A stretch of 64,000 nt of DNA from an uncultured virus (IMG/VR IMGVR_UViG_3300029305_011567) (lineage: Duplodnaviria; Heunggongvirae; Uroviricota; Caudoviricetes), in the IMG/VR virus record IMGVR_UViG_3300029305_011567; one strand, given 5' to 3'. The notes under the pieces are model-generated. The model made no database searches and had not been told where the DNA came from. It saw nothing but the letters and a program-made list of their open reading frames with translations. Positions 19,218 to 44,587 of the stretch are shown piece after piece. The translations under genes and the position numbers were made by a program. How positions within the stretch are numbered: the first letter of the stretch is position 1; every line of letters begins with the position of its first letter.

Positions 19218-19222
19218 GTGCC

Positions 19223-20119
19223 ATGTATGAAAATGATTTAAGGGATGTTTTGGCTCTGAATACCGGCGCACTTATCATCGGTCAGCAGGGATTACCCATG
19301 CTTGATGATGTGCTTAGTTATATTGCGGAAAAGCTGAACTTTAAAAAGGAACGGCTTTCGCAACATCCGGACTTTCTTATGGTTGGTCCGCAGGATGGTA
19401 AAAAGAGCATTGGCGTGGATATTGCGGACTTACTGGTTCGTAAATCACTTTACGCGCCTACCATTGCAGATACCATTTACCTTGTGGTGGATGGTATCGA
19501 CCTCTTTACAGAACAGGCACAGAACCGTGTCTTGAAGCTGTTTGAAGATGGTGTAAACGTCACTGTCATTGCAATTTCATACGGTGGCAGGTTATTACCT
19601 ACCATCCGTTCACGTCTGCTTACGTTTCGGTATCATAAGTTACCGTACAGTGAGTTTGAGAAGTATTGTAAAGAACATAGTGTTGAACACCCGAAGCTGT
19701 GGTATTACATTTGCGATGGCTGCCCGACACTCGTATTAGAATTACTTCCGCTTGCTGAACTGTTTTTGTCTTTGAAAGATGCAGTTGACCGTGAAGATGA
19801 AAAAGCCGTGTTTCAGGCATTGTCGCTTGTGAAAGAAAAAGACACGGCTACGGAGCGGTACTCTGGACATTACGCACAGATATTTCATCTGCTTGCTAAC
19901 CTGTATCTGGAAAAGCTCACTTTATGGCTGGCAAACGAAAAGCAGCTTGAACGTGACAAGGGACTTCTTGTTACACAAAACCATATGTCATGGGAGCATT
20001 TGCGCTACTGCGTGGAACTTTGTACGCAGAACCGGTCACGTTGTTTGATGACCTCTTATACGAAAGATAATTTCTTTCTTGCCATTTGCTCACTGTTTCA
20101 TTATAAGAAGGAGGATTAG
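19223..20119 (+). CDS. holB: DNA polymerase III delta-prime-like clamp loader subunit
   Basis: HPDF, AQNRVLKLFED, LLPTIRSR. Confidence 0.75.
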   Translation: MYENDLRDVLALNTGALIIGQQGLPMLDDVLSYIAEKLNFKKERLSQHPDFLMVGPQDGKKSIGVDIADLLVRKSLYAPTIADTIYLVVDGIDLFTEQAQNRVLKLFEDGVNVTVIAISYGGRLLPTIRSRLLTFRYHKLPYSEFEKYCKEHSVEHPKLWYYICDGCPTLVLELLPLAELFLSLKDAVDREDEKAVFQALSLVKEKDTATERYSGHYAQIFHLLANLYLEKLTLWLANEKQLERDKGLLVTQNHMSWEHLRYCVELCTQNRSRCLMTSYTKDNFFLAICSLFHYKKED

Positions 20120-20122
20120 GTT

Positions 20123-21772
20123 ATGAAACATTTGTATAACACATACAGACCGAATAATCTTGACGAAATCAAAGGTCAGGAAGAAACGGTTGCTATTATG
20201 AAAGGTATTATTGATTCCGGCAACCTCCCGCACACGCTTCTTTTTGTAGGTGTGCGTGGAACCGGCAAGACCAGTATCGGACGTATTTTTTCGCGCTATG
20301 TAAATTGCGAACATCCGACACCGAACGGGCCGTGTAATGAGTGTGCCGCATGTCGTGAGATTTTAAATGAAAGCAGTATGGATGTGCTTGAATATGACGG
20401 TGCATCGAATAACAAGGTGGAGGATATTCACAAACTGATGGAGAGTGCAAAGTATGAGCCTGTCCGTAAGAAAAAGGTATTCATTATTGATGAGTGCCAT
20501 GCACTTACGACAGCAGCTTGGCAGTCGATTCTGAAAATTTTGGAAGAACCGCCCGCAAATACCATCTTTATTTTGTGTACGACCGAAGTTCACAAGGTAC
20601 CTGCAACCATTATCTCACGTTGCCGTACATTCTATTTCAAGCAGATTTCCGTGGAAGTGGTTAAAGAGCAGTTGTCCGAGATCTGCGCAAAAGAGTCTAT
20701 CTCTTTTGATGATGAAGGACTTGCTTTAATTGCCAAGGCTGCCAAAGGCAGTATGCGTGATGCTATTTCAATTTTGGAACAGTTCACTGTTTCTGGTGCA
20801 TCATGTGAGCGTGTCAGAAGCGTTCTTGGACTGACTTCTGAGGAATGTATCTTTGGTCTGCTTGACAGCATTATTCAGGGCAGGGCAGATATGGGCTTAT
20901 CCATTCTGCGCGATACTCTGAGTGCCGGAAAGGATGCGAAGCTGCTTGTGAAAGACTTAATTACCGCCCTTACGGATGTAGCGTATTTCATCCAGTCCGG
21001 CGATTATGATGAAATTCATAATACGGACAGTTATAAGGAAGCGGTAAAGGAATTGTCCTATAAGGTTTCCATTACGTCTTGCATTGATATGATTAAATCA
21101 TTCTCTGCTATGTATGCTGTGGCATCGAAAAGTGGTGAGATGGAGTTCTTACTCCAGACGAATATGTTAGAACTGATTCTGGAACATTCCGAGCTTTCCC
21201 TGTTGAAAGAACGGGTAAATGAACTGGAAAATATGGTTCGTAACATCAGTGCCGCGCCTGTTTTGGCTACTCCCGTAGTAACCGCACCCGCGCAGGCAAA
21301 TCCCGGCATGGTTATGGATGAAGCAGTTGCGACGTCGCAACCGCAAACACCTACCAATGCTACGACACCTCTTTTTGCTGAGAATGATAGTAGTGATACT
21401 AAATCAGTATCAGATGATTTTGGCGACTTTTCACCTGCGGATGATGGTATTCCGTTTGGGGATGATATGCCGAGTGCATTGTCGCTTGGTTTATCCGGTG
21501 GCTTATTAGGAAAGGCAAAGGTTTGTGGTACGGTTGATTTATTTGGTGGCGCTGCCAACGAAGAAGCACCTACACAGCCTATGGTTACACCTGCTGCCAC
21601 ACCGCCTGTTACGAATGTACCCGCTACAAGCGCGGAAGTTCCCACGCAGAAGCCGACAGCGCCGCCCGTAGCACCCGAACCGGAACCTGAACCGGCAGTC
21701 CCTTCGGAAGAAGAAACGGACTTCTTTGGAGATACGGATGTATTCTCCCAAGGTGCCAGTTGTTTCTTTTGA
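20123..21772 (+). CDS. dnaX: DNA polymerase III gamma/tau
   Basis: YRP, Walker A GVRGTGKTS, Zn-binding cysteines, DECH, SRC. Confidence 0.95.
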   Translation: MKHLYNTYRPNNLDEIKGQEETVAIMKGIIDSGNLPHTLLFVGVRGTGKTSIGRIFSRYVNCEHPTPNGPCNECAACREILNESSMDVLEYDGASNNKVEDIHKLMESAKYEPVRKKKVFIIDECHALTTAAWQSILKILEEPPANTIFILCTTEVHKVPATIISRCRTFYFKQISVEVVKEQLSEICAKESISFDDEGLALIAKAAKGSMRDAISILEQFTVSGASCERVRSVLGLTSEECIFGLLDSIIQGRADMGLSILRDTLSAGKDAKLLVKDLITALTDVAYFIQSGDYDEIHNTDSYKEAVKELSYKVSITSCIDMIKSFSAMYAVASKSGEMEFLLQTNMLELILEHSELSLLKERVNELENMVRNISAAPVLATPVVTAPAQANPGMVMDEAVATSQPQTPTNATTPLFAENDSSDTKSVSDDFGDFSPADDGIPFGDDMPSALSLGLSGGLLGKAKVCGTVDLFGGAANEEAPTQPMVTPAATPPVTNVPATSAEVPTQKPTAPPVAPEPEPEPAVPSEEETDFFGDTDVFSQGASCFF

Positions 21773-21914
21773 AGCAGACTATAAAGAAATCCGAGATATG
21801 CTGATTGCAAAAAAGCTGGAGCATATACCAATCGTAGCAAATATGATACGGCAGATTGACGCTGCGTTGAGTCGTATCTGTAAGAAGGAGGTTGAAAGCC
21901 ATGAGGTATCATAA
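21738..21914 (+). CDS. Small hypothetical protein bridging dnaX and nrdG
   Basis: GGAG RBS before ATG; overlaps both neighbours. Confidence 0.4.
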   Translation: MYSPKVPVVSFEADYKEIRDMLIAKKLEHIPIVANMIRQIDAALSRICKKEVESHEVS

Positions 21915-22392
21915 TATTACAATGGATGATATGAAAAATGGGGACGGTCTTAGGACTGTCCTCTGGGTAAGCGGATGCTCTCATCATTGTAAGGATTGTC
22001 ATAATCCGATTACATGGAATCCTGAAATTGGACTTCCTTTTGATGAATGGGCGAAAGCTGAACTTATGATGAATCTTGCAAAGCCTTGGATTGAAGGAAT
22101 TACCTTTTCCGGCGGTGATCCTCTTTTTGAAGATAACCGTGAAACAGTAGGAAATCTGATTTCCTTTATCCGTACCAATTACCCGGATAAAAATATCTGG
22201 GTGTATACCGGTTACTGCTTTGAAGATTTGTCAGACCTTCCATTTTTAAAAGATATTGATGTCTTGGTGGATGGTCGGTATGAATGCGATAAACGGGACG
22301 TGGCATTAAAGTGGCGCGGTTCCATGAACCAGCGTGTCATTGATGTAAAAATGTCCCTTGAAACAGGCAAAGTCGTACTTCATTGCGACTAG
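21901..22392 (+). CDS. nrdG: Anaerobic ribonucleotide reductase activase
   Basis: NGDGLRTVLWVSGCSHHCKDCHN radical SAM motif; adjacent to nrdD. Confidence 0.95.
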   Translation: MRYHNITMDDMKNGDGLRTVLWVSGCSHHCKDCHNPITWNPEIGLPFDEWAKAELMMNLAKPWIEGITFSGGDPLFEDNRETVGNLISFIRTNYPDKNIWVYTGYCFEDLSDLPFLKDIDVLVDGRYECDKRDVALKWRGSMNQRVIDVKMSLETGKVVLHCD

Positions 22393-22405
22393 AAAGGAGA
22401 TTGCC

Positions 22406-24589
22406 ATGTGTAAGGTATTTGTTGTAAAAAAAGATGGTACATTACAGCCGTATTGTACTGAAAAAATCGTAAATGCCGTGACAAAATCCGCAAGCCGCGC
22501 AATGGTTACTTTTTCTGATGAAGAAATGAAAGCCATTACCGACTCTGTAATGGGCTATGTAAACGAGCATTACGGTAACGCACAGGACACCATTCATGTA
22601 CCGATAGCTTTTATGCATAACTCCGTTGAGAGTTCTTTGGAACGTATCAATCCGGCAGTTGCGAAAAGTTATCGTGATTACAGAAATTATAAGCAGGACT
22701 TTATTCATCTGATGGACGATACTTACCGCTTCGCGCAGAAAGTGATGTATGTCGGGGATAAGGAGAACAGCAATGCTGATTCTGCTATGGTTTCTACGAA
22801 ACGGAGTCTGATTTTTAACCATTTCAATAAGGAACTTTACCAGAAGTTCTTTATGACTACCGAAGAGATCCAGGCATGTCGTGACGGTTATATCTACGTG
22901 CATGATATGAGTGCCAGAAGAGATACCATGAACTGCTGTTTATTTGATATCTCCAGTGTCTTAAACGGTGGCTTTGAAATGGGTAATATCTGGTACAATG
23001 AGCCGAAAACATTGGATACTGCATTTGATGTTATCGGAGATATTGTACTGAGTGCTGCTAGTCAGCAATATGGAGGTTTTACCGTTCCAAACATTGATAG
23101 AGCACTTGCGCGTTATGCGGAAAAATCCTATCAGTTGTATTTTAAGGAAGCACTTTCACTTGGTTGTGAGGAACCTGCTGCCGAGTCTTATGCGTATACT
23201 AAAACCGCAAAAGAAATGGAACAGGGCTTTCAGGGATGGGAATACAAGTTTAACACGGTTGCATCTTCCCGCGGAGATTATCCGTTCATTACTCTTACTT
23301 TTGGTAATGGTATTGGAAAATGGGAAGTCCTTGCATCTAAGACCTGCCTGCGTGTGCGTAGGGAAGGACAGGGCAAGAAAGGCTATAAAAAGCCTGTTTT
23401 GTTTCCGAAGCTGGTATTCTTATACGACGAAGCACTTCACGGCCCCGGCGGTATTTTGGAAGAAGTTTTTGAGGAAGGTATATTAACCTCTTCAAAAACT
23501 ATGTATCCGGACTGGTTAAGTCTTACCGGCGATGGTTATGTAGCTTCTATCTACAAACAGTACGGTGTTGAAATCTCTCCGATGGGTTGCAGAGCTTTTC
23601 TTTCCCCGTGGTGGGAGAGAGGTGGTCTGTATAAAGCGGATGAGGATGATAAGCCCGTGTTTGTAGGACGCTTTAATATCGGCGTTGTTTCATTACATCT
23701 GCCGATGATCCTTGCGAAAGCAAATAAGAGCGGTAAGAGCTTTTATGAGGAACTGGATTATTACCTTGACTTAATCCGGAAACTGCATCTGCGTACCTAT
23801 GATTATCTGGGTGAAATGCGGGCAAGCTGCAATCCGCTGGCATACTGCGAAGGCGGTTTTCTTGGCGGACACTTACAGCTGACCGATAAGATTGCACCGG
23901 TTCTTGATTCTGCAACAGCATCTTTTGGAATCACGGCTTTGAACGAGCTTCAGATGCTTTATAATAAACGCTCACTTGTTGAAGAGGGACGCGCTTACTT
24001 AAAGGCTATGGAGCGTGGTGAGGAGTATTCTTACTTCGCAAAAGAAGTTATGGAATACATCAATGCAAAGATTGATGAGTTCAAGAGAGAAGATGGCAGA
24101 TTGTATGCTATCTACGGTACACCTGCGGAAAACCTTTGTGGTTTACAGGTGAAGCAGTTCCGTGCGAAATATGGTATTATTAAGGGCGTTTCTGATAAGA
24201 CTTATGTATCAAATTCGTTCCACTGCCATGTGAGTGAAGAAATCAATCCTACGGAAAAGCAGGATTTGGAATCTGTTTTCTGGAATTATTTCAACGGTGG
24301 TAAAATCCAGTATGTCAGATATCCGGTTGATTACAACATCAATGCAGTACGTTCTTTAGTCAGACGTGCAATGAAGATGGGTTATTATGAAGGTGTAAAC
24401 CTTTCCTTAGCCTACTGTGATGATTGCGGTCACAAAGAACTGGAAATGGATACGTGCCCGAAATGTGGCAGCCGTAACCTGACAAAGATTGACCGTATGA
24501 ACGGTTATCTGTCATACTCAAGAGTACATGGTGATTCAAGATTATCCGACCACAAGATGGATGAGATTGCAGACCGTGTATCTATGTAA
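22406..24589 (+). CDS. nrdD: Anaerobic ribonucleoside-triphosphate reductase
   Basis: ATP cone VVKKDG, PMGCR, TPAENLC, CxxC..CxxC, RMNGY glycyl-radical motif. Confidence 0.97.
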   Translation: MCKVFVVKKDGTLQPYCTEKIVNAVTKSASRAMVTFSDEEMKAITDSVMGYVNEHYGNAQDTIHVPIAFMHNSVESSLERINPAVAKSYRDYRNYKQDFIHLMDDTYRFAQKVMYVGDKENSNADSAMVSTKRSLIFNHFNKELYQKFFMTTEEIQACRDGYIYVHDMSARRDTMNCCLFDISSVLNGGFEMGNIWYNEPKTLDTAFDVIGDIVLSAASQQYGGFTVPNIDRALARYAEKSYQLYFKEALSLGCEEPAAESYAYTKTAKEMEQGFQGWEYKFNTVASSRGDYPFITLTFGNGIGKWEVLASKTCLRVRREGQGKKGYKKPVLFPKLVFLYDEALHGPGGILEEVFEEGILTSSKTMYPDWLSLTGDGYVASIYKQYGVEISPMGCRAFLSPWWERGGLYKADEDDKPVFVGRFNIGVVSLHLPMILAKANKSGKSFYEELDYYLDLIRKLHLRTYDYLGEMRASCNPLAYCEGGFLGGHLQLTDKIAPVLDSATASFGITALNELQMLYNKRSLVEEGRAYLKAMERGEEYSYFAKEVMEYINAKIDEFKREDGRLYAIYGTPAENLCGLQVKQFRAKYGIIKGVSDKTYVSNSFHCHVSEEINPTEKQDLESVFWNYFNGGKIQYVRYPVDYNINAVRSLVRRAMKMGYYEGVNLSLAYCDDCGHKELEMDTCPKCGSRNLTKIDRMNGYLSYSRVHGDSRLSDHKMDEIADRVSM

Positions 24590-27132: not shown

Positions 27133-27600
27133 ATGAAAAAGGGAAAATATTATTTGACTGATTTGGAACGGCTGGGAGCATCCTTTATTTATGAAAAAGT
27201 GGTTTTGAAAGATTTATCCGGAACGCATTACTCCGGTATGCTTATGATGAACGGAAAAATGTATCGTTCGTGTGTCGTGCGTAATCTGTTTGGGACAGGC
27301 TATTTGTCCGGCATTGTTGAAGATAACCCAAGCAGTCGCAGTAATCGTGATGAAATTCATAAATATATTATGGACCGTATTGCATCGGGAGAGTGCCCGG
27401 AATTTGAAAAAGCTGCTCTTAATAGAACTGTGCAAAAATTTTTATTTAAGATACTGTTTTTGATATGCCTTATTTTTTCCATTTTCTTCGGCGCACAGCT
27501 CCATAAATATCCGTGTCGCGACGCTTTTATTTCATTTATTTTACCTGTTATCTGTTGTATTGTTTCTGTACGTGCCTACATAGGAGCGTGCCGAATTTAA
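27133..27600 (+). CDS. Membrane protein, paralog of 31032-31517
   Basis: Two C-terminal TM helices; shared D.ER.G..YEK...G.L..NGK...V.R.L.G motif. Confidence 0.6.
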   Translation: MKKGKYYLTDLERLGASFIYEKVVLKDLSGTHYSGMLMMNGKMYRSCVVRNLFGTGYLSGIVEDNPSSRSNRDEIHKYIMDRIASGECPEFEKAALNRTVQKFLFKILFLICLIFSIFFGAQLHKYPCRDAFISFILPVICCIVSVRAYIGACRI

Positions 27601-27617
27601 AAAGGAGTGTGGATATT

Positions 27618-28526
27618 ATGAGAGAACCAAGTGAATATTTACAATCAGATACTCTGGATATGATTCAGACATTCTTATTGACTTGCAAACAGAGCCGAAC
27701 TAGGACTTCTTATTTTTCATGCCTTAATATTATCTGTGATTTTTGTCATAAGGATTTCTTAGAAATTGATTATGAGGATGCGCGAGCATTCTTTGATAAT
27801 ATGCAGTCCCAGTATTATAATCAAAGTATCACGCATGGTACAATATGTGTACGCCTTTCTTGCTATAATTCCTTTGCAAAGTTTGTAATGCGTAATTATC
27901 CGGAATGTGAATATAAAAACCCGTTTTTGCTGATTCCTCGTCCTGTCATTGACACGAAAATCAATCCGCGCCGCATTCCGTCGCTTACGGAACTGGATTC
28001 AGTGCTGACAACGGCAAAATCCATGTCGTCCATGTACTATGTGATTCTGATATTTGCGCTGCGCATGGGCTTATCTATTTCAAAGATTGTTAGCATAAAA
28101 AAGAGTCAGATTCTCTGTGAAGCAGCAGGCATGTTTTTATACTTACCAGCAAGTGACAGTACTAAAAATGACTTGTATGTAAAGGTTCCGGAAGATGTTC
28201 GTCAGGTTCTTGAAGATTACATTGCTAATATACCTTTTTCGGATGAAGAAGGTCACATCTTCTATAATAAATGGAATAATCCATTATCTATCAAAAATGC
28301 CGACGAATTTATCCGCGTGATTATGAGCAAGAGTGACGTTCTTGGCAAGTATACAATCAAAGATCTCCGTAGTCGTGCCATATTGGATATGGTTGAAGCT
28401 GGTGCCGATACCGAATCCATTGCAACATACACCGGATTGTCTAATATGCGTGTGCAACAGTTTTGTAATGCCAGCGGTATTGTTGGTGCTTGTCCTGCGG
28501 AACTTGTCAATTTACGTGTTGTGTGA
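27618..28526 (+). CDS. Tyrosine recombinase/integrase-like protein, catalytic residues degenerate
   Basis: SAM-like N-domain; ALRMGLSISKI, TIKDLRSR, GADTESIATYTGL...VQQF. Confidence 0.75.
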   Translation: MREPSEYLQSDTLDMIQTFLLTCKQSRTRTSYFSCLNIICDFCHKDFLEIDYEDARAFFDNMQSQYYNQSITHGTICVRLSCYNSFAKFVMRNYPECEYKNPFLLIPRPVIDTKINPRRIPSLTELDSVLTTAKSMSSMYYVILIFALRMGLSISKIVSIKKSQILCEAAGMFLYLPASDSTKNDLYVKVPEDVRQVLEDYIANIPFSDEEGHIFYNKWNNPLSIKNADEFIRVIMSKSDVLGKYTIKDLRSRAILDMVEAGADTESIATYTGLSNMRVQQFCNASGIVGACPAELVNLRVV

Positions 28527-29343: not shown

Positions 29344-30408
29344 TGTAGGTTTGTCAAACATTTGTTACACCCGATGCCAAATAATCCTGTAGCACTTGAT
29401 TGGGTGTTTTCCATCCAAGCGGTCTCATGGGGAAATGGTTGTAATCCCTGCGGTTATACACTTTCAGTTGGTGTGCGAAGTCTTTAAAAGAATAGAAAGA
29501 ATGTGTGGCATAGAAGCGTTCATTATCCTTTCTGTGGCTTCTTTCAACTTTGCCATTATGTCTTGGTGTAAAAGGACGAATTACTTTGTGCCTGATTCCA
29601 TAACGCTCCAAATGAACCTGAAACATGGTCGGTTTATCACGGTGAGTAGTAAATCGGTTCGTGAATTCCGTACCGTTATCGGTTTGGATACACGCAATAG
29701 GAAGAGGGAATGCCTTTACCAGATGATCCACGAACATGGCAGAAGAATAAGTGTTATGTTCTTCAAAAGCTTCGACAAAACGCCATCTGGAATATTCGTC
29801 AATGGCAGTATACTGAAAGAACTGCTTGCCGATCACCTTGCTGTTAACAAGGCATGCAGAAGGAACAAACTTTACATCAACCTGTATACGCTGACCGGGA
29901 TAATTCATTGTTTCATAAGGCTTGGGAATATACTTTGGGTTAGCAGGATGAACTGCCATAATACCCTGTTTACGAAGGAAACGATATAGTCCCGGAATGG
30001 AACGGGAATAACCACGCTGCATGAGTTTTACCCAAAAGACAACAAGACCGGCATCGGGGTTTCGTCTGCGCATATCCATGATGAGTTTCATTTCCTCAGG
30101 AGTATGCTGATTAGGATGGTGATGAGGTCTGCGTGATTTTTCACGCAAGGACTCTATAGAGCCATCGTAACGGCGTTTCCAACGATAAATATATTGCCTG
30201 TTGGTTTTGTACTTGATGGCAGCTTTGGTGACACCAAATTTTTCAGCGTATTTAATAAGCGATAGACGATATCTCATATCCTGTGTTATACTAGCCATGC
30301 GGGGAAGCTCCTTTATGTTTTTTGTTTTGTGGTGATTCAAATATAACACAAAGAGCGTATCCTCGCTTTTTAATTATTCAGTTGTAACACATGTATTGTA
30401 ATCCTACA
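29344..30408 (-). mobile_element. IS481-family insertion sequence
   Basis: 26-bp imperfect terminal IRs starting TGTAGG; single DDE ORF; 25-bp flanking direct repeat. Confidence 0.88.
29354..30298 (-). CDS. IS481-family DDE transposase
   Basis: N-terminal HTH; QVDVK, QTDNGTEF, NGKVERSH. Confidence 0.92.
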   Translation of the reverse strand: MASITQDMRYRLSLIKYAEKFGVTKAAIKYKTNRQYIYRWKRRYDGSIESLREKSRRPHHHPNQHTPEEMKLIMDMRRRNPDAGLVVFWVKLMQRGYSRSIPGLYRFLRKQGIMAVHPANPKYIPKPYETMNYPGQRIQVDVKFVPSACLVNSKVIGKQFFQYTAIDEYSRWRFVEAFEEHNTYSSAMFVDHLVKAFPLPIACIQTDNGTEFTNRFTTHRDKPTMFQVHLERYGIRHKVIRPFTPRHNGKVERSHRKDNERFYATHSFYSFKDFAHQLKVYNRRDYNHFPMRPLGWKTPNQVLQDYLASGVTNV

Positions 30409-31521: not shown

Positions 31522-32082
31522 TTATTCCCCTTCCTTTTCATCAAATAACATTTGCAACTCATTATAGAGCATATTGTCTGTGTTATGCTCTTTCATATAT
31601 TCTATGATAGCAAAAAACCGATTCTCAAGATGTTCCAACTCGTCTGCAGTGCAGGCTATTTTTTTACTTTTGTTTATTACACCTTTGTACTGCTGTCCTT
31701 TTTGCGATTCATATGCATATAAATACTGAGACAGACTCTCCAGTAAAAACAATCCTGAGTGTGTGCATAACATGTCATTAAGCATTTGATATATCATTTT
31801 ATCGTATGGATCTTCCGATAAGGACAGCTTATAGAATACATGGTCTGACTTTAAATGACTCTCTTCTACTTCTTCTCTCCATGTGTCCGTTTCTCCAAGT
31901 AAATATTCAAAACTCACATGAAAATAATCATGGTAGGCTTTCAGGTCTTTTAATGTAGGCTGTCTTTTTCCGCTTTCCAGTTCGCATATGTGCGGGTTAT
32001 AAAATCCTTCTCCGAACCGGCGGCATAATTCTCTTTGCCCGATGCCTTCTGTAAGCCGTAGTTTTAAAAACCGATTCTCCAT
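31522..32082 (-). CDS. XRE-family HTH protein
   Basis: IGQRELC...ELESGKRQPT...FHVSFEYLLGETD. Confidence 0.8.
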   Translation of the reverse strand: MENRFLKLRLTEGIGQRELCRRFGEGFYNPHICELESGKRQPTLKDLKAYHDYFHVSFEYLLGETDTWREEVEESHLKSDHVFYKLSLSEDPYDKMIYQMLNDMLCTHSGLFLLESLSQYLYAYESQKGQQYKGVINKSKKIACTADELEHLENRFFAIIEYMKEHNTDNMLYNELQMLFDEKEGE

Positions 32083-32087
32083 GAGCC

Positions 32088-33338
32088 TCACCCCCGTATC
32101 TTAATTAACAATTCTTCAATTTCTGATTCATCCCGGAGAATGAAACACTCGTATTCATCGTTATTCTCAGCGAATACCGCTTTTTTATTGTATTCTCTTG
32201 TGGATAGTGCCGTATCAATGAGAATACTCTTTCCCTTGAACCTCTCGATAATAAAAGCTGGCACCAGATTTCCATATGCTTCTATCGGCATATAGGGCTT
32301 TAGAAAGATTACTCTTTCTTCGCACAATCTGTCTGCTACTGCTTTCTCAAGCTCATTGCTTACATATAGCCCATGCGAAGTTGTGTAACAAATATTGCCT
32401 TTTAGCATGGTGATCCAGTCCGATATGCTACCACCGTTTTTATTCTGGTAACGGCTTCTATGTATATATCCCGCCAAAACACGTCGCATACCTTCTTTTT
32501 CCGGCGCTTCCTCTACCATTTCCTTAAAATCTTCCGTCAAAATACGCACTGTGGCTTTGTATTTGCTCTTATCGGATGGCATTTTGACTGTAATGTACTG
32601 ATACTTCCTATCTTCTTTAAAAGCTGCTATACGGTCAATTTCCGCGTACATAAAGTATCGGATTCGGTAATCATCATTTGCATAGAACGTATCTTTGTGA
32701 TAACAGATTGCCCTTAGTGGAACGACCTGACCTTCTACTTGTATTGTGATATCATTTGAAACACCGAAAATCAGACGGATGAATTCTTCATATGTTTTAT
32801 ACTGCCAGTTTGGTATTTCGCCCTTCTTTCGGGCTTCTTTAATTTCCTTTTTCTTACTATACGTCTGCTTTTCCCAAGCAATGCTTGTTAGTGCACGAAT
32901 CATTTCTGTCAGACTGGTGCGCTTGTAGGTGACTTCTTTTTTACTGGTTTCCTCGCCAGAGCTGTTAGATTCCCTTTTTTCATAGGTGCGCTTAATCACG
33001 GCCGGCATTGCGATATTGAATATGATCTGGCTATCTTCATTACCGTAAATCCCATTTCCGTGTTCTACAACCCATCTTGTGTATACTGTGGACTTTGGAC
33101 AAGACTCTTTGTGCCGGTCCTGCTGGTGGTTGGTTTTTACACGGATTACGCCTGTTGTTGTGATAGATAGTTCCAGTTCATTACACTCATTGCAAGCGCA
33201 AAAAAGCTGCAGGCTACCATCCTGTGTCATGCGACGCATCTGTGCTACGGATTCCGGTTCATATGACTGGAACTCTTTATATGAGATATAATTCTCTCCA
33301 TATTCAGTTAGGGTACGAAAATAGCCTGTCTTTACCAT
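32088..33338 (-). CDS. DUF1173-like protein (Zn-binding N-terminus, degenerate PD-(D/E)xK-like C-terminus)
   Basis: LFCACN...H..SC; FLKPY...VPAFII...ILID...Y.KK. Confidence 0.45.
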   Translation of the reverse strand: MVKTGYFRTLTEYGENYISYKEFQSYEPESVAQMRRMTQDGSLQLFCACNECNELELSITTTGVIRVKTNHQQDRHKESCPKSTVYTRWVVEHGNGIYGNEDSQIIFNIAMPAVIKRTYEKRESNSSGEETSKKEVTYKRTSLTEMIRALTSIAWEKQTYSKKKEIKEARKKGEIPNWQYKTYEEFIRLIFGVSNDITIQVEGQVVPLRAICYHKDTFYANDDYRIRYFMYAEIDRIAAFKEDRKYQYITVKMPSDKSKYKATVRILTEDFKEMVEEAPEKEGMRRVLAGYIHRSRYQNKNGGSISDWITMLKGNICYTTSHGLYVSNELEKAVADRLCEERVIFLKPYMPIEAYGNLVPAFIIERFKGKSILIDTALSTREYNKKAVFAENNDEYECFILRDESEIEELLIKIRG

Positions 33339-33516
33339 ATCTTATCTCTCTTGTTCTTGCGACGTCGCAATATTTTTTCACATTTGTATATAATAATATT
33401 CTTGTTGCCTTGCGATAACTCAAAATATTTTAGTTGGATATGAACCTATAAATTCCGTTCAGTAGCCTTGTTGTTTGGCAATATTCCAAAACCAATGCTG
33501 CGTTTACGTTGATACC

Positions 33517-33620
33517 GTTCAGTAGCTTTGTTGTTTGGTAATATTCCAAAACATCAAATAGCCTTTGCTGAGTGGAAATAGTTTCCCTCAGCCTTCGGCA
33601 GCTGAATCTGCCGGGTATAT
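33517..33620 (-). ncRNA. Cas12f guide-RNA scaffold + repeat, unit D
   Basis: Conserved scaffold CCCGGCAGATTCAGCTGCCGAAGGCTGAG...CTCAGCAAAGG fused to repeat. Confidence 0.75.
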
Positions 33621-33740
33621 ATTATGTTATTTTAGCTCGTTATAGATGCTCTGTCTGCATTGCAAGTGCATTGTTTTAATTGCCATGAAACATTTTGCAA
33701 TTTCCAAAACCCAATGCTGCGTTTACATTGCAACCTATCG

Positions 33741-33844
33741 GTTCAGTAGCTTTGTTGTTTGGTAATATTCCAAAACATCAAATGACCTTTGCTGAGTGGA
33801 AATAGCTTCCCTCAGCCTTCGGTAGCCGAATCTACCGGGTATAT
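33741..33844 (-). ncRNA. Cas12f guide-RNA scaffold + repeat, unit C
   Basis: Same scaffold with compensatory stem CGGTAG/CTACCG. Confidence 0.75.
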
Positions 33845-33957
33845 ATTATGTTATTTTAGCTTGTTAAAATTGATTCTGCTTACATTGCAAGCACATTATT
33901 TAAATTGCCGTGTAGTATTTTGTAATACTCCAAAACTGAACAACTATTTTAGATGCA

Positions 33958-34060
33958 GTTCAGTAGCCTTGGTATTCTGCAATACTCAAAACATCAAAAG
34001 ACCTTTGCTGAGTGGAAATAACTTCCCTCAGCCTTCGGCAGCTGAATCTACCGGGTATAT
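33958..34060 (-). ncRNA. Cas12f guide-RNA scaffold + repeat, unit B
   Basis: Same scaffold, more diverged repeat. Confidence 0.7.
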
Positions 34061-34156
34061 ATTATGTTATTTCAACTCGTTTAATGTACTTCTGTCTGTT
34101 TTGGAATATTACACGATGCTTTAAAATATAGACATCTGTTCAAAATTGCATTTTAT

Positions 34157-34260
34157 ATTCAGTGGCTTTTTTTGTTTGGCAATATTCCAAAACATCAAAT
34201 AGCCTTTGCTGAGTGGAAATAGTTTCCCTCAGCCTTCGGCAGCTGAATCTACCGAGTATA
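34157..34260 (-). ncRNA. Cas12f guide-RNA scaffold + repeat, unit A
   Basis: Same scaffold, beginning about 9 nt after the cas12f stop codon. Confidence 0.75.
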
Positions 34261-34268
34261 TATTTATC

Positions 34269-35447
34269 TTATACAAAGTCCTTTGACAATGCAACCTGTT
34301 TACCTAAATCGCGTTCTGTCTTTATAGATATGGTTTCATTTTCCGTTGGAACATCAAGTGCTTTTACTTTCTGCACGATTATACCATGCAACGACGCTTT
34401 GTACTCCAAAAACTGTTGAATCATATAAAAGGAACCTTGTAACAAAACATTCTCTTTTTCGTCCATATCTTCCACATGAATATATTTTGCTTCATTTTGA
34501 AGCGCAAAGTCTATGATGCGTTTGGTTATCATATGATTATAAGTCCGCGCAAAGTGGGCTTCATGCCGACCTACCCTGTCAAGTGCACGCAATTTTTCCT
34601 TACGTCCATGCCCGCCTTTTGCATCACGCAGCGCTCTTTGTAACCGGCTACGCTGTGCTTTGATTTTTGTGCGCATACGGCGGAGTTCATCACTACTTCC
34701 TATTAATTCGGTGGCATATTGATTATTATTTACTCCGCATACAGCCGGTATTGTTTCACCAAAATACACACCTACAACAGTATCTTCTTTTAGGGCATGT
34801 TCTTTTACGGGAATTGACAGGCAAAGATTTATCATTATCTTTTTACCGGTTTTGTCAAATTGAATGCCGCTTTGCTGAACCAGATAGTTTTCTTCAAATA
34901 TGTTTTTCAGTACACTCCTTAATTCCGCGGATCGGTGCGGGTTTCCAAGAACTACTCGGAATTGAATTTTATTAACCCAGTGAAGATATATTTCCAAATC
35001 CTGCTTGTAAAGATGTTCTAAAAACTCTGTATGGCTACTATACGGGTGCTTAAACTTGAGTGCTGTTTTTGCTGTCATAACGGGCATATCTCTTTTGTAG
35101 TTTCTAATAGCCCGCTCACCTTTGGCAAGTCCATTTTTAACATCATTCATAAAATCAGACTGTATACGGTGGGTGAGTAATGCTTTTGTTCCCAACCCAG
35201 TTTGATACTCGATGTCGTCTAACAGCGGATTGTGGTAATTATTCCTCAGACGGTCTTTAAATTCCTCATTTTTGATATCCCTTCCGCACTCATAATATTT
35301 ACTGGCAATCTGCCCCATTAACGTATTCATGGTGATATACTGGGAATACTGCGCATCACGGATAAATTTGTATACTCTTTGCACTTCTTCCTTGTCACCA
35401 ATCGGATAAAGCTGTATTTTTCTTGTGATAGTCTGTCTGTCTTTCAT
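34269..35447 (-). CDS. cas12f: Cas12f/TnpB-family RNA-guided protein, predicted nuclease-dead
   Basis: ITRKIQLYP N-terminus, G.R.IRNYK, GGHGRKEKL, YNH.ITKRIIDFA, IHVED, LEYKA..HGI.V; RuvC-I reads VGVYFG; no Zn-ribbon cysteines. Confidence 0.85.
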   Translation of the reverse strand: MKDRQTITRKIQLYPIGDKEEVQRVYKFIRDAQYSQYITMNTLMGQIASKYYECGRDIKNEEFKDRLRNNYHNPLLDDIEYQTGLGTKALLTHRIQSDFMNDVKNGLAKGERAIRNYKRDMPVMTAKTALKFKHPYSSHTEFLEHLYKQDLEIYLHWVNKIQFRVVLGNPHRSAELRSVLKNIFEENYLVQQSGIQFDKTGKKIMINLCLSIPVKEHALKEDTVVGVYFGETIPAVCGVNNNQYATELIGSSDELRRMRTKIKAQRSRLQRALRDAKGGHGRKEKLRALDRVGRHEAHFARTYNHMITKRIIDFALQNEAKYIHVEDMDEKENVLLQGSFYMIQQFLEYKASLHGIIVQKVKALDVPTENETISIKTERDLGKQVALSKDFV

Positions 35448-35471: not shown

Positions 35472-36533
35472 TTAAATAGCCGTATTCTCATTTGCTCTGT
35501 ATCTTCCCAAATGTTGCCGATCCCAGCTGTAATGGCTGATATACCACAGGATATCTTTCATTGTCATATTACTTCTTTGCAAATGTCTGCCCATTGTGAT
35601 ATAGCGTTCATTGTCATTCACCATAACGTAGTTGTTATGATAAAGGTTGTATTCTCCGTCATTTTTGCTTTCTTTAATTAGCCATGATTCCTCTTTTACA
35701 AATACAATCATTTCTTCCGGCGTATTCATATGAAGTTGAAAGCCTTGCTGATATAAACATACTTCCAACTGCTGATTGCTTACATTGCCTTTATTAAAAA
35801 ACCGCAGATACCGCTCAAAATGTTTGGAACTGCTTTTGATAGCGTTACGGATATAGATTTTTCTTCTGCAATGCGTACATAAGTGTCTACCTTCTAAGAC
35901 GGTACTTGCCGCGCCAAAATCTTCATTCCGTATATGCTTTACCAGTTCGCATGACTTGTCATGGATATACTGGTTTTTCTTAGAATATACAAACCGTACC
36001 TTGTGGTCTGCCATTGCTTCCACCCGCTTGCTTAACAGATATTCTGTACTTGCATCGGTGCTGATATCGGAATATTCAATCGTATCGTTCTTTCCTATTA
36101 CCGCTTTCCTTTGTGGTTTTTCCACTAAGGATAAATCTACCGGGACAAAACTGTTATTCTGCCTTATGTTACTGTTAAGTGTATTTGTATACACCCTGCT
36201 TTTTATGTACTTCCAGTTCTTATTAAAATCCTGCTTATAGACATATACGTTCTTCTGCCTTTTATCAATCATGCATGGAACTTTTGTCGGTTTGGGCGGA
36301 TTTTTACTACTTGCCACCATATGTAGAATATAAATACAGCTTTGTTCTATTTCTGATAACGCTTCCACCTTGTCTGTCACTTCCCGTTCATTTTCATACG
36401 GGCAGAACGTATATCCCTTTAGCTCGTCACAAAATACGGCTTTTCTATCATCGGTATGAACAGGTAATTTCCAGTTGAGCATGTAGTGAAAGCGTTCACT
36501 GTTTGTATCAATCATTTCACCATCCACTTGCAT
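35472..36533 (-). CDS. Hypothetical protein with H..SC...CxxC metal-binding motif
   Basis: IHDKSC...LCTHC; 24 bp upstream of cas12f on the same strand. Confidence 0.65.
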   Translation of the reverse strand: MQVDGEMIDTNSERFHYMLNWKLPVHTDDRKAVFCDELKGYTFCPYENEREVTDKVEALSEIEQSCIYILHMVASSKNPPKPTKVPCMIDKRQKNVYVYKQDFNKNWKYIKSRVYTNTLNSNIRQNNSFVPVDLSLVEKPQRKAVIGKNDTIEYSDISTDASTEYLLSKRVEAMADHKVRFVYSKKNQYIHDKSCELVKHIRNEDFGAASTVLEGRHLCTHCRRKIYIRNAIKSSSKHFERYLRFFNKGNVSNQQLEVCLYQQGFQLHMNTPEEMIVFVKEESWLIKESKNDGEYNLYHNNYVMVNDNERYITMGRHLQRSNMTMKDILWYISHYSWDRQHLGRYRANENTAI

Positions 36534-44155: not shown

Positions 44156-44509
44156 TCAACGATCCGACAATTTTTGAACTACATACTGGTTAAGACTTAT
44201 ATTTTCACTCTTAGCTTCCGTTGCCAGCTTTTTATGCAGGCTCTTGGGAATTCGTATAACAAATTTCCCACTATAATCACTCTCTTCCGCTTGATACGGT
44301 ACTGGCACCTCCTTTTTCATATCTAACAATGCTTTAATGTATAGTTCCATTGCTTCATCAAGATTGCTGTATACTTCTTGAATGGTATTTCCGGTGCTCT
44401 GGCATCCTTCTAGTTCTAATACTTTCCCATAGAAATAATGTTCATTTTTTTCATGTATTTCTCTAATAAATTTAGTATAAGGAAGTTTTAAATAATCATT
44501 TATTTCCAT
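44156..44509 (-). CDS. hicB: HicB-family antitoxin
   Basis: LEGCQSTG.T..E...NL.EA; YSGKFVIRIPKSLH..L..EA..ENISLNQY. Confidence 0.88.
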   Translation of the reverse strand: MEINDYLKLPYTKFIREIHEKNEHYFYGKVLELEGCQSTGNTIQEVYSNLDEAMELYIKALLDMKKEVPVPYQAEESDYSGKFVIRIPKSLHKKLATEAKSENISLNQYVVQKLSDR

Positions 44510-44587
44510 AACCAACACTCCTATTTTCACCTTTCTGTTTTGAACACTCTTTTCATATTTTAAGCGACTTAATACTTGCGGTCTCAC

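What the first reader, a model, noticed from the sequence alone, without database searches (positions are those of the whole stretch)
33457..35447. Nuclease-dead Cas12f with a tandem battery of four natural single-guide RNA cassettes
Seen: a 392-aa Cas12f-like protein whose RuvC-I Asp is Tyr (VGVYFG, Y228). RuvC-II E326 is kept, the Zn ribbon is absent and the RuvC-III segment is degenerate. Directly downstream on the same strand are four units (periods 199, 217, 224 bp) of scaffold + 36-nt repeat + a different guide. No cas1/cas2, tnpA or sigma factor is nearby. Known: dead TnpB (TldR) and dead Cas12f have been exapted as RNA-guided transcription regulators. Inference: a multiplexed RNA-guided DNA-binding system on a Firmicutes mobile element, with an architecture I do not recognise as described. 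It may repress host, competitor or own-element genes.
Basis: partly seen in the sequence, partly recalled or inferred. Interest (0 to 1): 0.95.

Follow-up and report, generated by a model that had tools for sequence, protein, structure and literature searches.

The report
Dead Cas12f with four guide-RNA cassettes
A gut-bacterial mobile element carries a miniature CRISPR protein (Cas12f) that has lost its DNA-cutting site but is still kept by selection, followed by four copies of a folded guide-RNA gene, so it most likely binds DNA rather than cuts it, a kind of system described recently in other bacteria.

Summary
Window 34269-35447 (-) encodes a 392-aa Cas12f1-clade protein. The closest solved relatives are CnCas12f1 (E 1.3e-60) and RhCas12f (E 6e-58). 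RuvC-I Asp is Tyr, the Zn ribbon is deleted in frame, and RuvC-III Asp is Glu.

Four modules follow on the same strand. Each is a 68-nt scaffold running straight into a CRISPR repeat and a spacer, and three have a second repeat, so they are mini-arrays. The scaffold is a real tracrRNA-type RNA: two hairpins plus a pseudoknot to the repeat's 3' end, all covarying across about 100 related modules.

The gene is not decaying. Against a second strain with the same dead features, dN/dS is 0.13.

The architecture is not unique. 187 of 202 family members are intact nucleases, mostly in large gut phages. They carry the same scaffold-plus-array module, and 44 of 60 sources have two or more.

Dead forms arose several separate times. 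One dead relative has spacers that match a promoter and a gene in its own genome perfectly.

No target was found for the window's guides.

Most likely this is an RNA-guided DNA binder or repressor. It is an independent, sigma-factor-free parallel to the published dCas12f systems: a new variant of a known kind.

The parts
34269..35447 (-). Nuclease-dead Cas12f (392 aa): Y228 at RuvC-I, E326 kept, Zn ribbon deleted in frame, Glu at the RuvC-III column
   Evidence: ORF. Alignment to 20 relatives; catalytic columns. PDB sequence search: 8hr5 E 1.3e-60, 9nzp 6e-58, 9n9c 2.2e-14. PADLOC Cas12u3 2.1e-69, covering profile 3-342 of 398. AlphaFold2 model pLDDT 84.8; Foldseek top hit 8hr5, TM 0.75. dN/dS 0.13 against the strain in run X8.
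34194..34264 (-). Cassette 1 scaffold (tracrRNA-like; two hairpins plus linker). It starts at the stop codon of the gene.
   Evidence: Covariance-model hit 34157-34264, 93.4 bits. Fold; covariation.
34157..34193 (-). Cassette 1 repeat (37 nt; 3' end CUGAAU pairs with the hairpin-1 loop)
34113..34156 (-). Cassette 1 guide region (the true 3' end is unknown)
   Evidence: Read. No match in the window. A 22-nt match to secY of some Lachnospiraceae is judged chance.
34097..34112 (-). Inverted fragment of the repeat's 5' half
   Evidence: Inverted repeats I1-I3.
33993..34063 (-). Cassette 2 scaffold
   Evidence: Covariance-model hit 33958-34063, 91.6 bits.
33958..33992 (-). Cassette 2 repeat (35 nt, the most diverged; its inner hairpin is rebuilt with other letters)
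33937..33957 (-). Cassette 2 guide (21 nt)
33901..33936 (-). Cassette 2 second, degenerate repeat (the 3' handle is lost)
33868..33900 (-). Spacer-like segment after the degenerate repeat. It has a TTGCAA-plus-17-nt layout and is related to the guide of cassette 3.
   Evidence: (D3).
33777..33847 (-). Cassette 3 scaffold
   Evidence: Covariance-model hit 33741-33847, 103 bits.
33741..33776 (-). Cassette 3 repeat (36 nt, identical to that of cassette 4)
33711..33740 (-). Cassette 3 guide (30 nt; 7 nt + TTGCAA + 17 nt)
   Evidence: Its first 20 nt have no match in viral contigs.
33675..33710 (-). Cassette 3 second, degenerate repeat
33643..33674 (-). Spacer-like segment after the degenerate repeat
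   Evidence: (D3).
33553..33623 (-). Cassette 4 scaffold
   Evidence: Covariance-model hit 33517-33623, 103.8 bits.
33517..33552 (-). Cassette 4 repeat (36 nt)
33493..33516 (-). Cassette 4 guide (24 nt; 70% like the guide of cassette 3)
   Evidence: (D4).
33457..33492 (-). Terminal repeat (2 mismatches to the repeat of cassette 4)

Best explanation
This is a naturally nuclease-dead Cas12f of the CnCas12f1/RhCas12f subclade. It sits on a phage- or plasmid-like element of gut Firmicutes and is kept as an RNA-guided DNA-binding protein.

Each of the four downstream cassettes would give an RNA of about 125-135 nt with these parts:
- hairpin 1, whose loop forms a pseudoknot with the last bases of the repeat;
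- hairpin 2;
- a long imperfect hairpin made by the linker and the repeat, the equivalent of the tracrRNA:repeat duplex, here joined in one strand;
- a 3' guide of 20-30 nt.

The loaded protein, probably a dimer as in Cas12f, would open DNA matching the guide and stay there. That would block a promoter, a transcribing polymerase or a replication function of the host or of a rival element.

Shown here: family membership and fold, loss of catalytic parts, a conserved RNA structure, the strand, purifying selection on the dead gene, and strain-to-strain change of spacers.

Inferred, not shown: transcription and processing of the cassettes, RNA loading, DNA binding, lack of cleavage, the PAM, the targets and the biological effect.
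For: Family and fold
- PDB sequence hits: 8hr5 (CnCas12f1) 1.3e-60 and 9nzp (RhCas12f) 6e-58.
- PADLOC Cas12u3/Cas12f at 1e-68 to 1e-69.
- AlphaFold2 model pLDDT 84.8. Foldseek top hits are all Cas12f, including the solved dCas12f 9n9c (TM 0.69 by query length, 0.77 by target length).

Loss of nuclease parts
- Tyr at RuvC-I, no Zn ribbon, and the family's LRNWS motif changed.

Guide RNA
- All 185 covariance-model hits lie on the protein's strand.
- On 103 distinct rows, 94.4% of cells pair, against 78.3% in shuffles (0 of 500 reach it) and 23-49% when the partners are slid.
- The pseudoknot was not in the model, yet pairs in 85.3% of cells, with compensatory changes in 3 of 5 pairs.
- Loop:repeat-end combinations among 133 full rows: UUUUG:CAAAA 51, UUUUA:UAAAA 23, UUCAG:CUGAA 4, UUUGA:UCAAA 4, UUUGG:CCAAA 4.
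- G-U pairs occur on this strand only.

Selection
- Run X8 holds a strain whose gene differs at 63 of 1244 laid bases but at only 16 of 392 residues, and keeps Tyr and the deletion.
- Over aa 248-392, dN is 0.027, dS 0.199 and omega 0.13.
- Scaffolds are 91-97% alike, while guides are 42-70% alike.
- X8 has other spacers behind the same repeats.

Analogy
- An independent dead relative, L087 (also Asp to Tyr), has a 29-nt spacer matching 29 of 29 a promoter in its own MAG. The match runs from -35 TTGCAA to just before TATAAT.
- It also has a 31 of 31 match inside an AAA_5-domain gene.
- Two nuclease-active relatives searched the same way gave only chance-level hits.

Published precedent
- dCas12f binds DNA through single guide RNAs (PMC13472631, sections 5-6).
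- Cas12m blocks transcription on plasmids (PMC11656645, passages).
Against: - No target was found for any window guide: not in the 64-kb window, not in 401 Lachnospiraceae genomes (only chance-level hits), not in the phage records, and not for the first 20 nt of guide 3 in viral contigs.
- The two arginines that read the PAM in RhCas12f (R117, R119; PMC13186708 passages) are Ala and Thr here (alignment). DNA recognition may be altered or weakened.
- The lineage sits on a long branch: 1.05 substitutions per site to the nearest active relative, and root-to-tip 1.61 against a median of 1.11.
- Guides 3 and 4 and the two spacer-like segments are related to one another. This fits unit duplication and drift as well as retargeting.
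- Promoter and terminator scans of the cassette region are at chance level: 9 found against 8.4 expected.
- The selection estimate rests on one strain pair and 25 listed differences.
- The second dead relative with a genome (L088) showed no self-match above chance.
Confidence: 0.6

Rival explanations
1. Relic: the nuclease died and the locus is on its way out. The cassettes are leftovers of duplicated mini-arrays with no present function.
For: - Long branch.
- PAM-reading arginines lost.
- Degenerate second repeats and an inverted repeat fragment.
- Related spacers in units 3 and 4.
- No targets found.
- Promoter signals at chance level.
Against: - dN/dS is 0.13 between two strains that both carry the dead state, with the reading frame intact in both.
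- The Zn ribbon was removed by a clean in-frame deletion that keeps the conserved C-terminal tail.
- The four scaffolds are kept at 91-97% identity with all three helices intact.
- Dead forms recur and persist in the family; for example, the cluster of P0038 has 75 member sequences.
Confidence: 0.1
2. Recruiter: the dead Cas12f is a targeting module that brings another activity to the guided site, as dCas12f brings sigma-E or Cas12k brings a transposase. Candidates here would be the co-oriented 353-aa protein 24 nt upstream or the 416-aa protein downstream.
For: - The 353-aa ORF ends 24 nt before the dCas12f start, on the same strand.
- The pair is also together on the 4160-nt contig of the second strain (P0121 92% and P0001 96% identical).
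- Published dead Cas12-type proteins often work as recruiters (PMC13472631; PMC10691335).
Against: - None of the related loci, dead or active, encodes a homologue of any window neighbour.
- The 353-aa family has only 7 members, none annotated, two of them fused to a PemK toxin domain.
- No sigma factor, transposase partner or relaxase is adjacent.
- Binding was not tested.
Confidence: 0.12
3. Decoy: the element uses a dead Cas12f and look-alike guide RNAs to poison the active Cas12f systems of rival phages. It would do so by soaking up their RNAs or by forming dead mixed dimers.
For: - The active relatives are phage-borne and carry spacer arrays.
- Cas12f works as a dimer on one RNA (PMC12255294 abstract, seen in the search listing; PMC13186708 passages).
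- RNA and protein decoys against CRISPR are known in phages (PMC11656645, passages).
Against: - The window's repeat and linker have diverged from those of every relative found. Only L064 gave a blastn match, to the scaffold.
- The protein is only about 50% identical to the nearest active form.
- Distinct spacers that change between strains are not needed for a decoy.
Confidence: 0.07
4. Still a nuclease: activity is kept through E326, the Glu at the RuvC-III column and some substitute for the first Asp.
For: - Two of the three acidic positions are still acidic.
- Rearranged catalytic sites that may stay active are discussed for TnpB (PMC10691335, passages).
Against: - The RuvC-I Asp is replaced by Tyr, and the whole Zn-ribbon/target-loading segment is deleted.
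- The same kind of C-terminal loss marks the solved, non-cutting dCas12f (PMC13472631, section 5).
- A relative with the same Tyr carries perfect self-matching spacers, which a nuclease would not tolerate.
Confidence: 0.03

Closest known systems
CnCas12f1 (PDB 8HR5) and RhCas12f (PDB 9NZP), type V-F1 (former V-U3) nucleases
   Same: These are the closest solved relatives by sequence (E 1.3e-60 and 6e-58) and by fold. They share the small size, a CRISPR repeat with the guide at the 3' end, and a tracrRNA-type scaffold with stems and a pseudoknot to the repeat end.
   Different: They cut DNA. The window protein lacks the RuvC-I Asp and the Zn ribbon, and has Ala/Thr where RhCas12f has its PAM-reading R117/R119. 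Their guide RNAs were engineered by joining tracrRNA and crRNA. Here the two are contiguous in the DNA.
dCas12f of Bacteroidota (PDB 9N9C; PMC13472631), with sigma-E, and the same paper's sigma-free dCas12f cluster next to CRISPR arrays
   Same: - A dead Cas12f with a C-terminal truncation that removes part of RuvC.
- Guide RNAs that combine scaffold and guide, encoded just downstream of the gene.
- Some loci have several tandem guide genes.
- The sigma-free cluster has putative guide scaffolds upstream of arrays and a promoter target.
   Different: - The origin is independent: E 2.2e-14 to 9n9c, against 1e-60 to active CnCas12f1, and the nearest tree neighbours are active nucleases.
- There is no rpoE or hth partner.
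- It sits on a Firmicutes mobile element.
- Full-length repeats and second repeats are still present.
- I could not see that paper's figures or supplementary tables, so I cannot exclude that its sigma-free cluster includes this lineage.
The evolutionary scenario of Altae-Tran et al. 2023 (PMC10691335): Cas12f loses activity, the tracrRNA fuses to a half repeat, and the unit duplicates into omega-RNA arrays
   Same: Dead Cas12f followed by tandem duplicated scaffold + repeat + guide units (passages).
   Different: That scenario was drawn for the RpoE-linked clade. Here the scaffold already abuts the first repeat in the nuclease-active relatives. The fusion therefore precedes inactivation, and the repeat is still whole.
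TldR (TnpB-like nuclease-dead repressors)
   Same: Small dead RuvC proteins with a guide RNA gene downstream, acting as RNA-guided repressors. Only the search listing and the start of the abstract were seen.
   Different: TldRs descend from transposon TnpB. This protein's relatives are CRISPR-associated Cas12f with repeat-spacer arrays.
Cas12m (type V-M) of plasmids
   Same: A miniature type V effector on mobile elements that binds DNA and blocks transcription without cutting, used in competition between elements (PMC11656645, passages).
   Different: It is a different Cas12 lineage. Only the family profile touches a Cas12m chain, at E 0.009.

Membership tests
Cas12f (type V-F1 / V-U3) effector | Sequence and profile similarity over WED-REC-RuvC | tested here: met
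   PADLOC Cas12u3 2.1e-69 and Cas12f 2e-68, aa 7-363. PDB 8hr5 1.3e-60. Pfam alone is below its cut-offs.
Cas12f (type V-F1 / V-U3) effector | Cas12f fold | tested here: met
   AlphaFold2 pLDDT 84.8. The Foldseek top 20 are Cas12f chains; 8hr5 has TM 0.75.
Cas12f (type V-F1 / V-U3) effector | RuvC Asp-Glu-Asp triad | tested here: not met
   Tyr-Glu-Glu at the three columns; 187 of 202 family members have Asp-Glu-Asp.
Cas12f (type V-F1 / V-U3) effector | Zn ribbon (CxxC...CxxC) in the target-nucleic-acid-binding domain | tested here: not met
   No CxxC; in-frame deletion of the segment. The PADLOC profile is matched only to position 342 of 398.
Cas12f (type V-F1 / V-U3) effector | Neighbouring CRISPR repeats and a tracrRNA that pairs with the repeat | tested here: met
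   Five repeats and four scaffolds; the pseudoknot and the linker-repeat helix are predicted, and the pseudoknot covaries.
Cas12f (type V-F1 / V-U3) effector | Homodimer on one guide RNA; PAM-dependent dsDNA cleavage | not testable with these tools
   No complex job was sent. This needs biochemistry.
dCas12f-sigma-E system (PMC13472631) | rpoE (sigma-E with a C-terminal extension) and hth next to dcas12f | tested here: not met
   Pfam scans of the neighbours found no sigma-E. An HTH protein lies 2.2 kb downstream (31522-32091). A multi-HTH/sigma-70-region-4-like protein lies 25 kb away.
dCas12f-sigma-E system (PMC13472631) | Membership of that dCas12f clade | tested here: not met
   E 2.2e-14 to 9n9c, against 1.3e-60 to the active 8hr5. 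Nearest tree neighbours are active nucleases.
dCas12f-sigma-E system (PMC13472631) | Single guide RNA (scaffold + guide, 85-105 nt) encoded downstream, sometimes in tandem | tested here: inconclusive
   The DNA layout fits: scaffold + repeat of about 104 nt plus a guide, four times. No RNA data: no RNA run was listed.
TldR (dead TnpB repressors) | Descent from transposon TnpB, with an omega-RNA overlapping the gene's 3' end | tested here: not met
   Relatives carry repeat-spacer arrays. TnpB chains appear only with the family profile, at E 1e-6 to 1e-12.
Canonical CRISPR array | Regularly spaced identical repeats with unrelated spacers | tested here: inconclusive
   Only cassette 4 has repeat-spacer-repeat at period 60. 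Other second repeats are degenerate, and some spacers are related. The strain in X8 has a repeat + 29-nt + repeat unit with another spacer.

The most novel reading that the evidence does not exclude
Mobile elements of gut Firmicutes have repeatedly converted a phage-type Cas12f nuclease into a 'promoter jammer'. In this reading, a dead Cas12f is loaded from self-contained tracr-repeat-guide cassettes whose guides are copies of promoter cores (from upstream of -35 to just before -10) of host or rival-element genes. The cassettes multiply and retarget by whole-unit duplication and exchange, without Cas1-Cas2. The window would be the most expanded case, with four cassettes, and the Asp-to-Tyr change a convergent route (window lineage and L087).
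Probability: 0.3. Interest if true: 0.6.

Novelty: new variant of a known kind. Interest (0 to 1): 0.45.

Why it matters
If the binding function is confirmed, this would be an independent, sigma-factor-free origin of a dead Cas12f regulator in Firmicutes mobile elements. It would sit right next to its still-active phage relatives in the family tree. That pairing gives a natural before-and-after comparison for how a CRISPR nuclease becomes a gene regulator.

The compact natural single guide (about 104 nt of scaffold plus repeat, with a covariation-backed pseudoknot) and a 392-aa binder are also of practical interest for small CRISPRi tools.

The family-level result is useful for annotation: Cas12f1 loci of gut phages carry their tracrRNA fused to each of several mini-arrays.

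It does not open a new category. The concept, the tandem guide genes and the evolutionary route are already published.

Tried and rejected
- Rfam: nothing relevant in 30-39 kb.
- Whole-genome look-ups: no genome is held for this window.
- Close relatives in metagenome contigs: only about 50% identical proteins.
- Megablast of 22 kb around the locus against phages and plasmids: no match.
- Earlier notes of this scan by place and by sequence: nothing.
- Guide targets in the window: 20-mers with up to 4 mismatches and 12-16-nt seeds were at or below chance.
- Guide targets in 401 Lachnospiraceae genomes: 72 genomes had hits at E <= 0.05, all short.
  - A 22-nt exact match of guide 1 to secY does not start at the repeat-guide junction. 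I estimate about 0.5 such matches by chance for this AT-rich query, so I rejected it as a target.
  - An 82% match of guide 3 in an AraC-type gene was likewise judged chance.
- Phage records, blastn at E <= 5: only marine cyanophage noise.
- First 20 nt of guide 3 in viral contigs: no match.
- RNA evidence: no RNA holder was listed among the 16 runs. This says nothing either way.
- Conserved partner genes: no window neighbour has a homologue in any related locus.
- PADLOC and NCBIfam on the neighbours: nothing. The 416-aa downstream protein has 54 unnamed relatives.
- Promoter and terminator scan: at chance level. The + strand 'terminators' it lists are hairpin 1 read backwards.
- TTGCAA enrichment in guides: 3 of the 7 window spacer segments, against 1 of 71 spacers of active relatives. 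The three are copies of one another, so I count this only as a lead.
- No complex prediction was sent, because the report claims no protein-protein contact.
Full report
**What is there**

The ORF at 34269-35447 on the minus strand encodes 392 aa. Pfam sees it only weakly: Cas12f1-like_TNB at E 0.0034 and OrfB_IS605 at E 0.031, both below cut-off. Other libraries place it firmly in Cas12f:
- PADLOC Cas12u3 at 2.1e-69 and Cas12f at 2e-68, over aa 7-363, matching profile positions 3-342 of 398.
- Solved structures by sequence: 8hr5 at 1.3e-60, 9nzp at 6e-58, AsCas12f entries near 1e-14, and 9n9c ('nuclease-deactivated Cas12f') at 2.2e-14.
- 8hr5 is CnCas12f1 (title). 9NZP is RhCas12f (PMC13186708, passages).
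- An AlphaFold2 model built on 21 sequences has mean pLDDT 84.8. Its best Foldseek matches are all Cas12f chains: 8hr5 with TM 0.75, and the solved dCas12f 9n9c with TM 0.77 by target length.

**The nuclease is gone**

In an alignment with 20 relatives, and in a 202-sequence family alignment:
- The RuvC-I Asp column holds Tyr (VGVYFG, Y228).
- E326 is kept.
- The RuvC-III Asp column holds Glu.
- No CxxC pair remains.
- The family's LRNWS motif reads LLQGSF.

The Zn-ribbon segment is missing as an in-frame internal deletion. The C-terminal tail still aligns with the family consensus, and the first guide scaffold starts at the stop codon, as in the active relatives. No lost coding sequence is therefore hiding downstream.

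The two arginines that read the PAM in RhCas12f also bind a PAM-like stem of its guide RNA. These are R117 and R119 (PMC13186708, passages). Here they are Ala and Thr (alignment).

**The cassettes**

The repeat finder gives four copies of a 126-nt unit. The spacings are 201, 216 and 224 nt counted from the gene. It also gives five copies of a 36-41-nt repeat. Tandem Repeats Finder scores the array 733.

Read on the protein's strand, each unit is made of:
- an AT-rich lead;
- a 68-nt scaffold;
- a 35-37-nt repeat beginning GTTTTGG and ending CTGAAC (CTGAAT in unit 1);
- a spacer.

Units 2 and 3 then have a second, degenerate repeat and a further spacer-like segment. Unit 1 has an inverted fragment of the repeat. 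Unit 4 ends with repeat + 24-nt spacer + repeat. The units are thus scaffold-plus-mini-array modules.

Scaffolds are 91-97% alike, repeats 70-100% and guides 42-50%, except for units 3 and 4 at 70%. No other copy of the repeat lies in the window.

**The scaffold is a conserved structured RNA on the protein's strand**

Relatives show the same element directly in front of the first repeat of real CRISPR arrays, which have 36-nt repeats, about 30-nt spacers and a period of 66. Ten modules aligned give two hairpins, with compensatory changes in 6 of 12 pairs.

A covariance model built from them found 185 matches in the window and 97 loci. Every one is on the protein's strand, and four are in the window at 91.6-103.8 bits.

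I then noticed that the loop of hairpin 1 is complementary to the last bases of the adjoining repeat, and that the two change together. Among 133 full-length rows the combinations are:

| Loop : repeat end | Rows |
|---|---|
| UUUUG:CAAAA | 51 |
| UUUUA:UAAAA | 23 |
| UUCAG:CUGAA | 4 |
| UUUGA:UCAAA | 4 |
| UUUGG:CCAAA | 4 |
| UUCGG:CUGAA | 1 |
| UUUCG:CGAAA | 1 |

The remaining rows are misaligned or unpaired.

Counted formally on 103 distinct rows:
- 94.4% of cells pair, against 78.3% in shuffles (0 of 500 reach it) and 23-49% with slid partners.
- The pseudoknot helix was not part of the model that made the alignment. It pairs in 85.3% of cells and has compensatory changes in 3 of 5 pairs.
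- Helices 1 and 3 were fitted by the model, so their figures lean towards it.

G-U pairs in hairpin 1 exist only on this strand.

Single-sequence folds of the four window units add a third, long imperfect hairpin between the linker and the 3' half of the repeat. Their z-scores are -2.6 to -4.0. In L064 the corresponding linker is a 12-nt perfect anti-repeat.

A pseudoknot between the tracrRNA and the 3' end of the repeat is described as a general trait of Cas12 guide RNAs (bioRxiv 10.1101/2025.01.20.633832, passages). Each cassette is thus a tracrRNA and a crRNA joined in one piece of DNA.

**The family**

The search for homologous proteins returned 315 proteins.
- One, P0001, is 96% identical. 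It is also 392 aa, with the same Tyr and the same deletion.
- The next are 50-56% identical, 412-462 aa, and complete nucleases.

I pooled 202 distinct sequences: the window's protein, those of the listed top 120 that are at least 300 aa, and the locus ORFs of at least 380 aa. Of these, 187 have Asp-Glu-Asp. Of the other 15, three are cut or broken, and 12 carry replacements:
- window and P0001: Tyr;
- P0003 and P0004: Ala;
- P0027 and P0037: Asn;
- P0038: RuvC-III and Zn ribbon lost;
- P0053: Lys/Met;
- P0063: Cys/Asn;
- P0068: Lys/Glu;
- L087: Tyr;
- L088: Phe.

In a FastTree tree these lie apart, each next to active forms. The window pair sits on a long branch: 1.05 substitutions per site to the nearest active relative, and root-to-tip 1.61 against a median of 1.11. 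Support around it is low, at 0.32-0.35.

The relatives come mostly from viral contigs of 50-186 kb and from Lachnospiraceae, Clostridia and other Firmicutes genomes.

In the alignment of the best 150 model matches, 60 sources have at least one full module: 15 have one, 18 two, 26 three, and the window four. Many of the three-module loci are close relatives of one another, so these are not 26 independent cases. In those loci the modules flank the gene and can have different repeats.

So the multi-module layout is a family trait of the active nucleases. The window differs in having all modules downstream, in tandem, with one or two spacers each.

**Is the gene decaying?**

Sixteen DNA runs from animal faeces or gut hold the stretch, seven of them with 45-91% of its words. 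None is on record as RNA.

Contigs of X1, X6 and X7 are identical to the window where they cover it. X8 holds a second strain. Its 4160-nt contig differs at 63 of the 1244 bases laid. That is the same length as the longest contig given for P0001.

The 25 differences listed for codons 248-392 reproduce exactly the nine residue differences between the window protein and P0001 in that stretch. They give dN 0.027, dS 0.199 and omega 0.13 by the Nei-Gojobori method. Over the whole gene there are 16 residue differences.

This is one strain pair, but it shows purifying selection acting after the loss of the nuclease, including on the remnant of the RuvC domain.

In X8 the same repeats are followed by other spacers. 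One is a loose end right after the repeat of cassette 4. Another is a repeat + 29-nt + repeat unit. Guide content therefore changes between strains.

**What do such dead forms do?**

The window's host genome is not held, and I found no target for its guides.

Whole genomes are held for two dead relatives and several active ones.

L087 is 427 aa, has Asp to Tyr, has three modules, and comes from a Lachnospiraceae MAG. Two of its spacers match its own MAG perfectly:
- One is 29 of 29 on another contig. The match covers a promoter from 6 nt upstream of a TTGCAA -35 box to the base before a TATAAT -10 box, in front of a small ORF with a signal peptide.
- The other is 31 of 31, antisense, inside a 656-aa ORF with an AAA_5 domain, 65 kb away on the same contig.

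The first 20 bases of the promoter target recur at two promoters in the genome of L088.

Searched the same way:
- the dead L088 gave nothing above chance;
- the active L068 and L070 gave nothing above chance.

A nuclease could not carry perfect self-matches. A binder can. This is the best available hint at function, but it comes from a separate dead lineage.

Guide 3 and the two spacer-like segments of the window have the same layout (6-9 nt, TTGCAA, 17 nt). Only 1 of 71 spacers from active relatives contains TTGCAA. The three window segments are copies of each other, so I treat this as a lead only.

**Context**

The window is mostly genes without known families. Those with a family include:
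- a tyrosine integrase;
- an IS with an rve transposase;
- a Replic_Relax protein;
- HicB and YopX;
- clamp-loader subunits;
- an anaerobic ribonucleotide reductase;
- a sortase.

It has no tRNA and no megablast match to known phages or plasmids. It is a phage- or plasmid-like element, and I could not decide which.

The co-oriented 353-aa ORF 24 nt upstream stays with the gene in the second strain, but it has only seven relatives. No window neighbour recurs near any relative.

**Comparison with what is known**

Hoffmann and colleagues (PMC13472631; I read sections 5 and 6 and passages) describe:
- dead Cas12f proteins with C-terminal truncations;
- single guide RNAs of 85-105 nt encoded just downstream, in some species as several tandem genes;
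- a separate sigma-free cluster next to CRISPR arrays, with putative guide scaffolds upstream of the arrays and a promoter target.

Altae-Tran and colleagues (PMC10691335, passages) proposed the route: Cas12f inactivated, tracrRNA fused to the repeat, unit duplicated into arrays.

The window is a parallel, independent case in another Cas12f subclade, on a Firmicutes element and without a sigma factor. It has one twist: in this subclade the scaffold already abuts the first repeat in the active nucleases.

My literature searches did not turn up a description of this lineage or of its multi-module layout. I could not see the figures or supplementary tables of these papers.

Earlier notes of this scan report similar tracrRNA-plus-mini-array modules and dead Cas12f genes in other genomes. 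I used them only as leads.

**Verdict**

The reading as a dead Cas12f with several natural guide cassettes is right. The claim of an undescribed architecture is not.

The most likely function is RNA-guided DNA binding that blocks promoters or genes of the host or of rival elements (confidence 0.6). The rest is spread over a recruiter role, a relic, a decoy and residual nuclease activity.

Noticed in passing
L087 (5423-5451 and 3035-3065); targets G003:C43:955-987 and G003:C5:8469-8499: An independent dead Cas12f (Asp to Tyr) in a Lachnospiraceae MAG has two spacers with perfect matches in its own MAG. One covers a promoter core (-35 TTGCAA up to the -10 box). The other lies inside an AAA_5-domain gene.
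   Followed up: partly
L139 (G004:C125:5243-5262), L140 (G004:C1:53168-53187), L135 (G003:C43): A 20-nt promoter element (A-tract, GTGC, TTGCAA, ATGAT) recurs in front of different genes in two related MAGs. It is the sequence that the L087 guide matches.
   Followed up: partly
L009, L016, L033 and about 20 similar viral loci: Nuclease-active Cas12f genes of 130-186-kb gut phages are flanked by three scaffold-plus-array modules, two upstream and one downstream. The modules have different repeat sequences. Some arrays repeat the same spacer, as at L033 3715-3810.
   Followed up: partly
window 34124-34145: 22 bases of the first cassette's spacer region are identical to a conserved stretch of secY (..GGSFEQMSIFAL..) in at least two Lachnospiraceae genomes. 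The match does not start at the repeat-guide junction and is within chance expectation.
   Followed up: yes
window 35472-36533 (-): A 353-aa ORF of unknown family lies 24 nt upstream of the dead Cas12f gene. It has only seven relatives in 5.8 billion clusters, and two of them carry a PemK/MazF toxin domain.
   Followed up: partly
window 32088-33338 (-) and 31522-32091 (-): Downstream of the cassettes lie a 416-aa protein of an unnamed family (54 representatives) and an overlapping Xre/RstR-like HTH repressor. They may form their own small operon.
   Followed up: partly
window 29354-30349 (-): An IS-type transposase (HTH + rve integrase core) lies 3 kb beyond the cassettes, next to a tyrosine integrase at 27513-28526.
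   Followed up: no
window 59887-60990 (-): A 367-aa protein made of many helix-turn-helix units, matching dozens of HTH and sigma-70 region-4 models. It may be a multi-HTH regulator.
   Followed up: no
window 44156-44587 (-): A HicB-type antitoxin. No HicA partner was looked for.
   Followed up: no
window 19214-24589 (+): Two clamp-loader (DNA polymerase III delta'/gamma-tau-like) genes and an NrdD anaerobic ribonucleotide reductase. This gene set is typical of large phages or phage-plasmids.
   Followed up: no
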